From a virus (lineage: Duplodnaviria > Caudoviricetes), in IMG/VR virus record IMGVR_UViG_3300032093_000005: DNA of 64,000 bases. One strand, given 5' to 3'. This document shows, one piece after another, positions 23,881-24,379 of this stretch. The position numbers were made by a program, and so were the translations under genes. Under the pieces are notes generated by a model. That model worked only from the letters and a program-made list of their open reading frames with translations, was not told the DNA's origin and did not search any database. Each line of letters begins with the position of its first letter. Within the stretch, counting starts at the first letter, position 1.

Positions 23881-23909
23881 TTGACTTTTTTGAGTTCTTG
23901 TGATAGACT
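23881..23909 (+). promoter_or_regulatory. Sigma70-type promoter (rightward, against the genome-wide direction)
   Basis: TTGACT-N17-TAGACT. Confidence 0.7.
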
Positions 23910-23933
23910 GCTCGCCTAACTCACAAGACCTAG

Positions 23934-24080
23934 AAGGTTTTAATGAGTATTACATAAGGTTTTAATGAGTATTACATAAGGTTTTAATGAGTATTACATA
24001 AGGTTTTAATGAGTATTACATAAGGTTTTAATGAGTATTAGTAGAAGGATTTAGAGAGTATTACATAAGGTTTTAATGAG
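23934..24080 (+). repeat. 22-bp tandem repeat AAGGTTTTAATGAGTATTACAT, about 6.6 copies
   Basis: Four perfect units 23934-24021, two variants 24022-24066, partial unit to 24080. Confidence 0.95.
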
Positions 24081-24111
24081 AATAAACACACCTATTCTCA
24101 ACTAATACCCT

Positions 24112-24151
24112 TATTGATTCTCAATAACAATCACCTTATTGAGAATCAATA
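24112..24151. terminator. Perfect 16-bp inverted repeat followed by a T-rich tract
   Basis: TATTGATTCTCAATAA-CAATCACC-TTATTGAGAATCAATA; AT-rich to 24192. Confidence 0.65.
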
Positions 24152-24193
24152 TATGTTTTTTAATACCTTTTTTAATTAAATTTAAGTTAAAAT

Positions 24194-24379
24194 ATGTCTA
24201 AAATCACAAAAAGACCACAAAATATGTGTTATTCCTGTTGGTATACATGGTATCCAAGAGGTAAGAACATTTCGAATGTTTGTCCTAATTGCGGAAGTCG
24301 TAATACAGGAATTGATCTCAGTGGGTTAATACTCTTTGTGATTATACTGATTATGATCTTGATCTTTGCGACGATCTAA
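24194..24379 (+). CDS. Zn-ribbon protein with a C-terminal hydrophobic helix
   Basis: CYSC...CPNCGSRN followed by LILFVIILIMILIF; the only credible plus-strand gene seen. Confidence 0.55.
   Translation: MSKITKRPQNMCYSCWYTWYPRGKNISNVCPNCGSRNTGIDLSGLILFVIILIMILIFATI

What the first reader, a model, noticed from the sequence alone, without database searches (positions are those of the whole stretch)
23881..24379. Counter-oriented unit: promoter, 22-nt tandem repeat RNA, hairpin, Zn-ribbon membrane ORF
In an otherwise minus-strand window, a plus-strand TTGACT-N17-TAGACT promoter (back-to-back with a leftward one) fires into about 6.6 non-coding 22-bp repeats, then a perfect 16-bp hairpin with a T tract, then a 61-aa CxxC/CPxCGS protein with a hydrophobic tail. 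Promoter-repeats-terminator-ORF is the architecture of type III toxin-antitoxin loci, and phage-borne repeat RNAs are known decoys of ToxIN. However, the unit is shorter than ToxI and the ORF is not ToxN-like, so this could be an undescribed RNA-repeat/small-protein system (TA, exclusion or anti-defence decoy). Alternative: 22 bp is two helical turns, and iterons plus an AT-rich tract plus a transcript fit a replication origin.
Basis: partly seen in the sequence, partly recalled or inferred. Interest (0 to 1): 0.75.

Follow-up and report, generated by a model that had tools for sequence, protein, structure and literature searches.

The report
Cyanophage origin-like repeat control module
The 22-base repeats belong to a conserved, single-copy, gene-free control module of viruses that infect cyanobacteria; it looks far more like a replication origin or early control switch than a toxin-antitoxin system, but its function is untested.

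Summary

The unit is not private to this phage. It is one member of a large family: 44 non-redundant copies, with one copy per complete genome in S-SRM01, S-SKS1 and Sf-FS3. The shared plan is a counter-oriented promoter, a variable array of 11/22-bp direct repeats, a box cluster, then a very AT-rich tract.

In 19 of 44 members the boxes are host DnaA boxes, about 470-fold enriched over the flanks. Here they are replaced by a palindrome that is dispersed in cyanophage early regions and whose core equals the Anabaena FurA consensus core.

There is no ToxN-like gene, no conserved RNA structure and no conserved terminator. The ORF is kept only in one freshwater subclade; elsewhere the slot holds homing endonucleases or nothing.

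Best reading (about 0.4): a T4 oriE-like, transcription-activated origin or control module with the repeats as iterons. This scan had already flagged the DnaA-box form of this module in at least 8 other cyanophage windows. This window is a DnaA-box-less, long-array variant.

The parts
23569..23769 (.). Cluster of about 9 copies of the odd palindrome CTCG(A/T)CGAG(AT), just left of the divergent promoters. The same cluster lies upstream of the module in S-SRM01, S-SKS1 and L204-L209.
   Evidence: 22 window matches against 5.8 expected, in three clusters. Searches show it in relatives.
23804..23832 (-). Leftward early-type promoter TTGACA-N17-TATGAT (11 of 12, with TG) that starts the minus-strand small-gene block. 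It is back to back with the plus-strand promoter.
23847..23859 (.). Conserved TGTGTGGGTCTCA box between the two -35 hexamers.
   Evidence: Seen in the window, S-SKS1 and S-SRM01. It was then used as part of the search pattern.
23881..23909 (+). Counter-oriented promoter TTGACT-N17-TAGACT with extended -10 (TGATAGACT). The predicted start is near 23916.
   Evidence: It is conserved in 53 IMG/VR loci and has positional equivalents in L204-L209. It is single-copy in G000, S-SRM01, S-SKS1 and Sf-FS3.
23910..23933 (+). Conserved leader (CTCACAAGACCTAGA type) between the promoter and the first repeat.
   Evidence: Alignment A2.
23934..24080 (+). 6.7 copies of the 22-bp unit AAGGTTTTAATGAGTATTACAT (two 11-bp half-units). 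This is the iteron-like array.
   Evidence: Relatives have 2 to about 10 units with periods of 11/22/33/44.
24077..24101 (.). Two extra half-sites of the palindrome core: TGAGAAT at 24077-24083 and ATTCTCAA at 24094-24101.
   Evidence: A third half-site is also common beside dispersed copies.
24112..24151 (.). Perfect 16-bp inverted repeat with an 8-nt spacer and core ATTCTCAATAA / TTATTGAGAAT. It is a copy of a palindrome dispersed in cyanophage early regions. It occupies the slot that holds DnaA boxes in relatives. With the following T run it is a likely intrinsic terminator for the plus-strand RNA in this phage.
   Evidence: the only two copies of the 11-mer in the 96-kb contig are these arms. 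(at least 118 metagenome contigs; spacer of 8 nt in 119 of 126 sites). (FurA consensus core).
24152..24193 (.). AT-rich tract with repeated TTTTTTAA. It is a candidate DNA unwinding element and is conserved with S-SRM01, L061 and L205-L207.
   Evidence: Its melting rank is 3rd to 7th of 96 kb.
24194..24379 (+). 61-aa zinc-ribbon protein with a C-terminal membrane helix. It is a passenger or partner gene of the module in one freshwater subclade.
   Evidence: (Zn_ribbon_19, below the cut-off).

Best explanation
The 22-bp array is the iteron-like part of a conserved, single-copy, cis-acting DNA module. The module lies in the early region of T4-like (Kyanoviridae) and S-SKS1-like cyanophages.

Its plan, in order:
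1. Back-to-back sigma-70-type promoters.
2. A short conserved leader.
3. A variable array of direct repeats phased at 11/22 bp.
4. A cluster of 2-3 protein-binding boxes about two helical turns apart.
5. A very AT-rich tract.

I read it as a transcription-activated replication origin or control region of the T4 oriE / oriF-G kind. In this model the counter-oriented early promoter sends RNA polymerase through the repeats into the AT-rich unwinding element, where an R-loop or open complex lets the phage replisome load (inferred). The repeats and boxes are landing pads for DNA-binding proteins that set or gate this event (inferred).

In most relatives the boxes are host DnaA boxes (shown). In this phage they have been replaced by a copy of a dispersed cyanophage palindrome, 11-8-11, whose core is identical to the FurA consensus core. 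That palindrome also makes a terminator-like hairpin (sequence shown, function inferred).

The 61-aa zinc-ribbon membrane ORF is a downstream passenger. It is kept only in a freshwater subclade and is probably expressed by read-through (inferred).
For: - Real, non-chance array.
- The same module occurs in S-SKS1 and S-SRM01, in 53 IMG/VR loci, and in loci reached independently through the ORF.
- One copy per complete genome, always opposite to the genes.
- DnaA boxes (TTWTCCACA): 45 in 12 kb of modules against 3 in 373 kb of flanks. 19 of 44 modules have 2-3 boxes, about 21-22 bp apart.
- Close relatives with the same flanks and the same ORF carry DnaA boxes exactly where this phage has the palindrome.
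- Repeat periods are multiples of 11 bp in most members.
- The AT tract is 3rd to 7th easiest to melt of 96 kb here, and 1st to 4th of 241 kb in S-SRM01.
- No conserved terminator and no conserved RNA structure, so the constraint is on DNA or on transcription itself.
- S-SRM01's palindrome arms diverge without compensation but keep the ATTCTCA core.
- T4 precedents (PMC3016281): oriE is an early promoter plus evenly spaced iterons plus small rep genes; oriF/G are a promoter plus an AT-rich unwinding element with an R-loop primer.
Against: - No origin activity, transcript or protein binding has been measured.
- Cumulative GC skew is monotonic and shows no switch at the module in three genomes. 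This is expected for unidirectionally transcribed phages that replicate by recombination, so it counts as no support rather than as a refutation.
- This window has no DnaA box.
- No Rep-like initiator gene is recognisable nearby.
- In this phage the strong hairpin plus T run should stop most transcripts before the AT tract. That fits a discrete RNA or a gate better than simple R-loop priming.
- The palindrome is mostly found outside modules (118 of 126 sites), so it is a general regulatory or stem-loop element, not an origin-specific box.
- S-SKS1's AT tract is only in the top 0.05-0.1% of windows, not the genome minimum.
Confidence: 0.4

Rival explanations
1. The module is an early regulatory hub gated by DNA-binding proteins, not an origin. 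The counter-oriented promoter and its long leader form a switch. Proteins bound to the repeats and to the boxes (DnaA, or the palindrome's binder, possibly a Fur-family protein or a phage regulator) block or allow transcription into the plus-strand cargo (zinc-ribbon gene, homing endonucleases), or they insulate the divergent early promoter. This would tie early phage expression to host state.
For: - The box slot is exchangeable between DnaA boxes and an unrelated palindrome in phages with the same flanks. This suggests a generic roadblock or operator role.
- The palindrome is used at many other early intergenic sites beside GTGNCAG...CTGNCAC palindromes.
- Its core equals the Anabaena FurA consensus core, and a related box in L047 is one mismatch from the cyanobacterial Zur box.
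- Plus-strand genes sit directly downstream in about two thirds of members.
- Fur boxes downstream of a start site are known roadblocks (PMC8634477).
Against: - Many members, including S-SKS1, S-SRM01 and S-PM2, have no plus-strand gene to regulate.
- The conserved AT-rich tract and the DnaA boxes, which are almost exclusive to the module, are not explained by cargo control.
- S-PM2 keeps the AT tract and three DnaA boxes although its promoter spacer has collapsed.
Confidence: 0.25
2. The functional product is a non-coding repeat RNA. A plus-strand RNA of about 245 nt (roughly 23916-24160) carries 6.7 copies of a 22-nt motif. It would act as a sponge or decoy for an RNA-binding protein or nuclease, whether a defence or a regulatory factor, in the manner of CsrB/RsmZ or pseudo-ToxI.
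For: - In this phage, promoter, repeats and a strong hairpin plus U run define a discrete transcript.
- The promoter is highly conserved.
- The repeats are always on the transcribed strand and in one orientation.
- Units share purine-rich AGG/GGAGG motifs.
Against: - No consensus structure over 38 relatives.
- The fold is only marginally better than shuffles, z = -2.0, and most of that comes from the palindrome.
- No conserved terminator: 32 of 44 members have none.
- No Rfam family matches.
- DnaA boxes and an AT tract have no RNA-level rationale.
- The order of boxes and AT tract is inverted in some members (L044, L046, L064, L075, S-PM2).
Confidence: 0.15
3. The array is neutral or structural by-product DNA of a hyperplastic-region cassette. 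It would be a slippage-prone tandem repeat inside a PeSL-like promoter/stem-loop cassette that serves mainly as a recombination site and landing pad for homing endonuclease genes. The repeats themselves would have no function.
For: - Copy number and unit sequence change quickly between relatives: 2, 3, 4, 5 or 6.7 units; 21, 22 or 44 bp.
- Arrays are internally near-perfect, as expected from recent slippage.
- GIY-YIG or HNH genes lie directly downstream in about 18 of 44 members.
- The stem-loop is a dispersed element like those of PeSLs (PMC2839356, PMC4122927).
Against: - An array of 11-bp-phased units is kept at the same position across very divergent phages, including a non-Kyanoviridae phage.
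- The module is single-copy, whereas PeSLs are many per genome.
- The tight association with DnaA boxes and a conserved AT tract is not expected of junk.
Confidence: 0.1
4. It is a type III toxin-antitoxin locus (ToxIN-like). The repeats would be processed into 22-nt antitoxin RNAs that neutralise the zinc-ribbon membrane protein acting as the toxin.
For: The order promoter, repeats, terminator-like hairpin, small ORF resembles toxIN.
Against: - The ORF has no ToxN/AbiQ/CptN/TenpN similarity, and there is no PADLOC hit.
- The units are 22 nt with no conserved fold.
- The terminator is not conserved.
- Relatives insert a homing endonuclease gene between repeats and ORF, or lack the ORF altogether.
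- DnaA boxes sit in the would-be antitoxin transcript.
Confidence: 0.02

Closest known systems
Bacteriophage T4 oriE (early promoter, 12-nt iterons, repEA/repEB; Vaiskunaite et al. 1999, as reviewed in PMC3016281)
   Same: Both occur in a T4-type phage. Both have an early sigma-70-type promoter, a cluster of evenly spaced direct repeats and small ORF(s) just downstream. The role of the repeats is unproven in T4 too.
   Different: The unit is 22 bp (2 x 11), not 12 nt. The promoter points against all genes. Relatives add host DnaA boxes, and an AT-rich tract follows. Homology of the zinc-ribbon ORF to RepEA/RepEB was not tested. Origin activity is untested.
T4 oriF (uvsY) and oriG (gene 34) R-loop origins (PMC3016281)
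   Same: [quoted passage not shown] It offers a mechanism (a transcript forms an R-loop that primes the leading strand) that needs no initiator protein.
   Different: T4 uses MotA-dependent middle promoters and has no repeats or boxes. Here 150-250 bp of repeats and boxes, and in this phage a terminator-like hairpin, lie between the promoter and the AT tract.
Iteron-type origins of plasmids and phages (R6K gamma with seven 22-bp iterons, P1 oriR, lambda ori); from established knowledge, with R6K cited in PMC3016281
   Same: Tandem direct repeats of about 22 bp in helical phase, an adjacent AT-rich region, and DnaA boxes in relatives.
   Different: No cognate Rep/pi/O-like initiator gene is recognisable. 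Array length and unit sequence are much more fluid.
Bacterial oriC architecture (DnaA-box cluster plus unwinding element)
   Same: Relatives have 2-3 perfect cyanobacterial-type boxes (TTTTCCACA / TTATCCACA), co-oriented and phased, next to an AT-rich tract.
   Different: This window has no DnaA box. T4-like phages bring their own helicase and loader, so what DnaA would do here is unclear.
PeSLs, promoter-early stem-loop cassettes of T4-like phages (PMC2839356, PMC4122927)
   Same: The hairpin is a copy of a sequence-conserved stem-loop or palindrome dispersed in early, hyperplastic regions next to early promoters. The module is a hot spot for gene insertion.
   Different: The module as a whole is single-copy and has repeats, boxes and an AT tract. 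The dispersed palindrome has a fixed 8-nt spacer and frequent third half-sites, which suggests an operator rather than only a terminator.
ToxIN / type III toxin-antitoxin systems and phage pseudo-ToxI decoys
   Same: The order promoter, tandem repeats, hairpin, ORF.
   Different: There is no endoribonuclease toxin and no structured 34-40-nt repeat. The terminator and ORF are not conserved with the repeats.
Phage T5 injection-stop region (bioRxiv 10.1101/866236)
   Same: A conserved non-coding region with direct repeats, palindromes and paired DnaA boxes, sometimes split by an HNH gene.
   Different: The T5 region lies in a terminal repeat and serves two-step injection. T4-like cyanophages are circularly permuted, and no two-step injection is known for them.

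Membership tests
Type III toxin-antitoxin (ToxIN, CptIN, TenpIN) | ToxN/AbiQ-family endoribonuclease gene directly after the repeats | tested here: not met
   Pfam gives only a sub-threshold Zn_ribbon_19 match. PADLOC and PHROGs give nothing for the ORF and 9 neighbours.
Type III toxin-antitoxin (ToxIN, CptIN, TenpIN) | Tandem antitoxin RNA repeats of about 34-40 nt, each with a conserved fold | tested here: not met
   The unit is 22 nt. RNAalifold finds 0 conserved pairs over 38 relatives. There is no Rfam match.
Type III toxin-antitoxin (ToxIN, CptIN, TenpIN) | Repeats, terminator and toxin gene conserved together | tested here: not met
   Terminator-like sites are absent in 32 of 44 relatives. 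The ORF is replaced by endonuclease genes or by nothing, or is separated from the repeats by an inserted gene.
T4 oriE-type origin | Early (host sigma-70-type) promoter at the origin | tested here: met
   Extended -10 promoter, conserved across the family. Its activity has not been measured.
T4 oriE-type origin | Cluster of evenly spaced direct repeats (iterons) | tested here: met
   6.7 x 22 bp. Periods of 11/22/33/44 bp in relatives.
T4 oriE-type origin | RepEA/RepEB homologues downstream | not tested
The primary paper (PMC94188) is not held.
T4 oriE-type origin | Early DNA synthesis starts here | not testable with these tools
   This needs marker-frequency or 2D-gel data from infected cells.
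T4 oriF/oriG R-loop origin | [quoted passage not shown] | tested here: met
   The AT tract at 24152-24193 ranks 3rd to 7th easiest to melt of 96 kb. The homologous tract ranks 1st to 4th of 241 kb in S-SRM01.
T4 oriF/oriG R-loop origin | Persistent R-loop in the unwinding element that primes DNA synthesis | not testable with these tools
   In this phage a hairpin plus T run lies before the tract and may stop the transcript.
Iteron-type origin (R6K gamma, P1 oriR, lambda ori) | At least 3 direct repeats of about 17-22 bp in helical phase next to an AT-rich region | tested here: met
Iteron-type origin (R6K gamma, P1 oriR, lambda ori) | Adjacent gene for a cognate iteron-binding initiator | tested here: not met
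   No Rep-like family among the neighbours. The zinc-ribbon ORF is an untested candidate only.
oriC-like DnaA-box origin | Cluster of DnaA boxes beside the unwinding element | tested here: not met
   There are none in this module. The feature is met in 19 of 44 relatives, including the closest carriers of the ORF.
PeSL-type promoter/stem-loop cassette | Sequence-conserved stem-loop with an early promoter, many copies in hyperplastic regions | tested here: inconclusive
   The palindrome occurs in at least 118 metagenome contigs, with several copies in some of them. It occurs only once in this 96-kb contig, and the module is single-copy.
Fur-family operator (Fur box) | Match to a cyanobacterial Fur/Zur consensus | tested here: inconclusive
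   The 11-nt arm core is identical to the centre of the Anabaena FurA consensus (PMC4005646 and PMC4788461). The L047 box is one mismatch from the RegPrecise cyanobacterial Zur core. The 11-8-11 layout is not a classical Fur box, and host genomes could not be scanned.
Fur-family operator (Fur box) | Binding by host Fur | not testable with these tools
   This needs EMSA or ChIP.

The most novel reading that the evidence does not exclude
The module is a transcription-primed phage origin with a swappable 'host-sensor slot'. In some phages host DnaA boxes fill the slot. In this one it holds a Fur-family-type palindrome. Different phages would thus gate the start of their replication on different host states, such as replication status or metal/redox status. 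The conserved 61-aa membrane-anchored zinc-ribbon protein would bind the 22-bp iterons and tether or fire the origin at the membrane.
Probability: 0.1. Interest if true: 0.85.

Novelty: new variant of a known kind. Interest (0 to 1): 0.55.

Why it matters
Replication origins of T4-like cyanophages, among the most abundant viruses in lakes and oceans, have never been mapped. The held literature gives only a prediction of a single theta origin in Syn9 (PMC2984593).

A single-copy, widely conserved module with a promoter, iterons, host DnaA boxes and an unwinding tract gives a concrete, testable candidate. Culturable carriers exist for the tests: S-SRM01, S-SKS1, S-PM2 and Sf-FS3.

This window adds three points:
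- The box slot is exchangeable. DnaA boxes can be replaced by a dispersed palindrome with a Fur-like core.
- Iteron arrays expand to about 7 perfect-phase units.
- The site is a hot spot for homing endonucleases and small genes.

The window also shows that a promoter-repeats-hairpin-ORF layout is not enough to call a type III toxin-antitoxin system.

Tried and rejected
- GC skew and gene orientation in the window, G000, S-SRM01 and S-SKS1: skew is monotonic and all genes lie on one strand, so it cannot locate an origin.
- Public reads: two metatranscriptome runs hold only 23376-23672, the palindrome-cluster region of related phages, and nothing on the repeats. Logan contigs break inside the array. 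Nothing can be said about a plus-strand transcript or copy-number variation.
- Rfam at a permissive threshold: only chance-level hits.
The test is still open.
- Fur Pfam family in the phage contig: none.
- AlphaFold of the ORF with 8 sequences: pLDDT 67 and the ribbon is poorly modelled, so no fold search was run.
- ESM Atlas: only unnamed clusters.
- First repeat-based pattern scan: mostly chance hits; only L014 and L037 were real.
- Considered and rejected or left open:
  - Pho-box, HLR1/RpaB and low-affinity DnaA-site readings of the 11-bp half-units: partial matches only, judged by eye.
  - NtcA and LexA boxes: no match.
  - The mini-ORF in each unit: not conserved in S-SKS1.
  - T5-like injection-stop signal: the genome type does not fit.
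- The Syn9 origin prediction could not be compared because the source paper is not held. Syn9 has an inverted DnaA-box pair at 52565-52597.
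Full report
**Observation.**
- Tandem Repeats Finder reports a 22-bp unit, 6.6 copies, score 250, at 23934-24080. Four copies are perfect, and no match is expected in shuffled sequence.
- A plus-strand TTGACT-N17-TAGACT promoter with a TGn extension lies at 23881-23909. It is back to back with a leftward TTGACA-N17-TATGAT at 23832-23804.
- A perfect 16-bp inverted repeat (24112-24127 / 24136-24151, 8-nt loop) is followed by a T run.
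- The 61-aa ORF lies at 24194-24379.
- The consensus promoter match alone is not above chance: 12 sites found against 8.3 expected. Its reality rests on conservation (see below).

**Source.** The window is the minus strand of a 96-kb IMG/VR virus contig, about 41% complete. Its best named relatives are Synechococcus cyanophages, with the freshwater T4-like S-SRM01 closest. Near-identical DNA is held by lake and freshwater metagenomes of 14 studies. All long ORFs of the contig lie on one strand.

**The unit belongs to a large family.** blastn matched the promoter and repeats to an unannotated gap of S-SKS1, and the left flank to S-SRM01.

Reading these loci showed the same plan in all three phages:
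- a cluster of CTCG(A/T)CGAG palindromes;
- a TGTGTGGGT box;
- an extended -10 promoter;
- a conserved leader;
- 22-bp repeats (5 in S-SKS1, about 2 in S-SRM01);
- a pair or trio of boxes;
- an AT-rich tract.

A pattern built on the box and promoter found 53 IMG/VR loci. Together with loci reached through the ORF, I have 44 non-redundant modules.

The promoter pattern occurs exactly once in G000, S-SRM01, S-SKS1 and Sf-FS3, each time opposite to the genes. S-SKS1 is not a member of Kyanoviridae, so the module crosses phage lineages.

**Anatomy and statistics.** Repeat regions have best periods of 11, 22, 33 or 44 bp in most members. Unit sequences differ between phages while arrays are internally near-perfect.

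After the repeats:
- 19 of 44 modules carry 2-3 cyanobacterial-type DnaA boxes (TTTTCCACA / TTATCCACA), about 21-22 bp apart;
- 11 carry an ATTCTCA...TGAGAAT inverted pair, also about 22 bp apart;
- 3 have a single box;
- 11 have neither.

DnaA boxes are 45 in 12 kb of modules against 3 in 373 kb of flanking phage DNA. In S-SKS1, S-PM2 and Syn9 they form one tight cluster per genome.

The AT-rich tract with repeated TTTTTTAA follows the boxes. In L044, L046, L064, L075 and S-PM2 it precedes them. It ranks 3rd to 7th easiest to melt in the 96-kb contig, 1st to 4th in the 241-kb S-SRM01, and in the top 0.05-0.1% of windows in S-SKS1.

**The ORF.** It is a real gene. Seven homologous clusters of 59-61 aa exist. 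The zinc-ribbon part (residues 5-43) is nearly invariant, and the hydrophobic tail varies in sequence.

All four clusters I looked up (six loci, L204-L209), plus L074, place the gene on the plus strand just after a module of this family. In L206 and L209 an HNH gene, and in L074 a GIY-YIG-like ORF with no Pfam hit, is inserted between module and ORF.

These close relatives share the window's flanks (23398-23790 and 24147-24363, 72-79% identity). Their centre is different: another promoter variant, other 11-nt units, and 2-3 DnaA boxes where the window has its hairpin.

Outside this freshwater subclade the slot holds GIY-YIG genes (about 13 modules), HNH genes (about 5) or nothing (about 15). 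So the ORF depends on the module, not the reverse.

Pfam gives only a sub-threshold zinc-ribbon match. PADLOC and PHROGs give nothing. The model and the Atlas search add nothing.

**The hairpin.** Its 11-nt arm core, ATTCTCAATAA, occurs only twice in the 96-kb contig, namely as the two arms. It is identical to the centre of the published Anabaena FurA consensus AAATAAATTCTCAATAAAT (PMC4005646 and PMC4788461). A related single box in L047 is one mismatch from the RegPrecise cyanobacterial Zur core quoted in PMC9337993.

A metagenome scan then showed that the same 11-8-11 palindrome is widely dispersed:
- It is present in at least 118 contigs, 126 sites in all, and the spacer is exactly 8 nt in 119 of them.
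- Only 8 sites lie in a module context.
- 74 sites lie beside GTGNCAG...CTGNCAC palindromes after small early genes.
- 39 of the 126 sites have a third half-site nearby.

The window's hairpin is therefore a copy of a dispersed cyanophage palindrome. It is comparable to the stem-loops of PeSL cassettes of T4-like phages (PMC2839356, PMC4122927), not an origin-specific box.

In S-SRM01 the arms have diverged without compensation while keeping the ATTCTCA core. Together with the third half-sites, this favours sequence-specific protein recognition over a mere RNA stem.

Whether the binder is host Fur or a phage protein could not be tested, because no host genome could be reached.

**RNA-level tests.**
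- The predicted 252-nt transcript folds only marginally better than shuffles (z = -2.0), and most of that is the palindrome.
- RNAalifold finds no conserved pair in the leader and first repeats of 38 members.
- A hairpin-plus-T-run terminator at this position is convincing only in the window, and 32 of 44 members have none.
- Rfam has no match.
- Public RNA contigs do not cover the array, so this says nothing either way.

**Interpretation.** Several features point to a cis-acting DNA element whose function needs transcription:
- single copy per genome;
- counter-orientation to all genes;
- a conserved promoter;
- helically phased repeats;
- phased boxes for a replication initiator in half of the members;
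- a conserved, highly meltable AT tract;
- no RNA-level constraint.

The T4 paradigms fit. oriE is an early promoter with evenly spaced iterons and small downstream genes. oriF and oriG are a promoter plus an AT-rich unwinding element in which the transcript forms the priming R-loop (PMC3016281).

I therefore rank 'transcription-activated origin or control module, with the 22-bp repeats as iterons' first, at 0.4.

What is shown is the anatomy, the conservation, the box statistics and the absence of toxin-antitoxin features. What is inferred is transcription, protein binding, unwinding and origin activity.

The main rival (0.25) is a non-origin regulatory hub. It is strengthened by two findings: the box slot can hold an operator-like palindrome that is used elsewhere, and plus-strand cargo often follows.

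A repeat-RNA sponge (0.15) stays possible for this phage in particular, because here a terminator-like hairpin would release a discrete RNA of about 245 nt.

Neutral slippage in a recombination or homing hot spot gets 0.1. A type III toxin-antitoxin system gets 0.02.

**Relation to earlier notes of this scan.** At least eight follow-ups on other cyanophage windows had flagged the DnaA-box form of this module as a candidate origin or DnaA-sensing switch. I reached the same family independently from the 22-bp repeats and re-derived the enrichment.

New here:
- the link of a DnaA-box-less, long-array variant to that family;
- the swap of the box slot among phages with the same flanks;
- the dispersed 11-8-11 palindrome with a FurA-like core;
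- the subclade-specific zinc-ribbon gene;
- the homing-endonuclease hot spot.

No paper in the held library connects cyanophages with DnaA boxes.

**Limits.**
- All function is inferred.
- Most family members were found with a pattern that imposes the promoter, so their promoter conservation is partly circular. The independent loci are those.
- The copy number of the array comes from a short-read assembly and may be imprecise. L204 has a scaffold gap inside its array.

Noticed in passing
window 17372-17428, 20851-20975, 23569-23769; also L001:2380-2500, L002:4170-4340, L205:950-1190: Clusters of the odd palindrome (T)CTCG(A/T)CGAG(A): 22 window matches against 5.8 expected. The third cluster always accompanies the module in relatives. 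It partly overlaps a possible acidic-repeat ORF (23511-23711, minus strand). Metatranscriptome contigs of related phages cover 23376-23672.
   Followed up: partly
L210-L327 (for example L213:520-549, L211:3609-3638, L250:11105-11278, L281: three sites): The palindrome ATTCTCAATAA-N8-TTATTGAGAAT is dispersed in cyanophage-like metagenome contigs: at least 118 contigs, with a spacer of 8 nt in 119 of 126 sites. It mostly lies just after small early genes, and it is often nested in or beside GTGCCAG...CTGGCAC palindromes with a third half-site. It looks like an operator or a PeSL-like cassette. Its binder is unknown.
   Followed up: partly
L213:550-640, L216:1217-1300, L222:685-770, L241:2937-3020, L246:784-870: Many dispersed palindromes are followed by a conserved G/C-rich element of about 60-80 nt (GGCAGG...GGCGATGTATTGTCGTC...CAGGGATACC...CCCCTC) that looks like a long hairpin. 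It may be an undescribed structured RNA. Rfam gives no match.
   Followed up: partly
L052:728-1762, L051:656-1471, L070:1931-2467, L063:3932-4441, L206:1007-1498: The site just after the module's AT tract is a hot spot for homing endonuclease genes: GIY-YIG in about 13 and HNH_3 in about 5 of 44 modules. This may help to spread the module between unrelated phages.
   Followed up: partly
L122:1150-1290 and 1420-1540 (S-PM2d, LN828717 about 9680-10070): S-PM2 keeps the AT tract and three DnaA boxes (two direct, one inverted). The spacer of its module promoter has collapsed. A different array of AAATCTTAAG-type direct and inverted repeats lies upstream.
   Followed up: no
window 23934-24080: Each 22-nt unit reads as a mini-gene: AAGG, five bases, ATG AGT ATT ACA TAA (Met-Ser-Ile-Thr-stop). 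This is not conserved in S-SKS1 units, so it is probably coincidence.
   Followed up: partly
window 1-13000 versus 15000-24000: There is a sharp change in composition: about 29% GC in the long structural genes against 43-53% GC in the small-gene early region (peak at 18-20 kb). The same contrast is seen in G000 and S-SRM01 around the module.
   Followed up: no
L204:1275-1375: A scaffold gap (run of N) lies inside the repeat array of a 241-kb relative. These arrays defeat short-read assembly, so published copy numbers, including the 6.7 here, may be imprecise.
   Followed up: no
W01 (Syn9, NC_008296) 52565-52597: Syn9 has an inverted pair of perfect DnaA boxes 24 bp apart, plus one more 2 kb away. 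It has no match to the module promoter pattern. This was not compared with the origin predicted for Syn9 in the literature.
   Followed up: no
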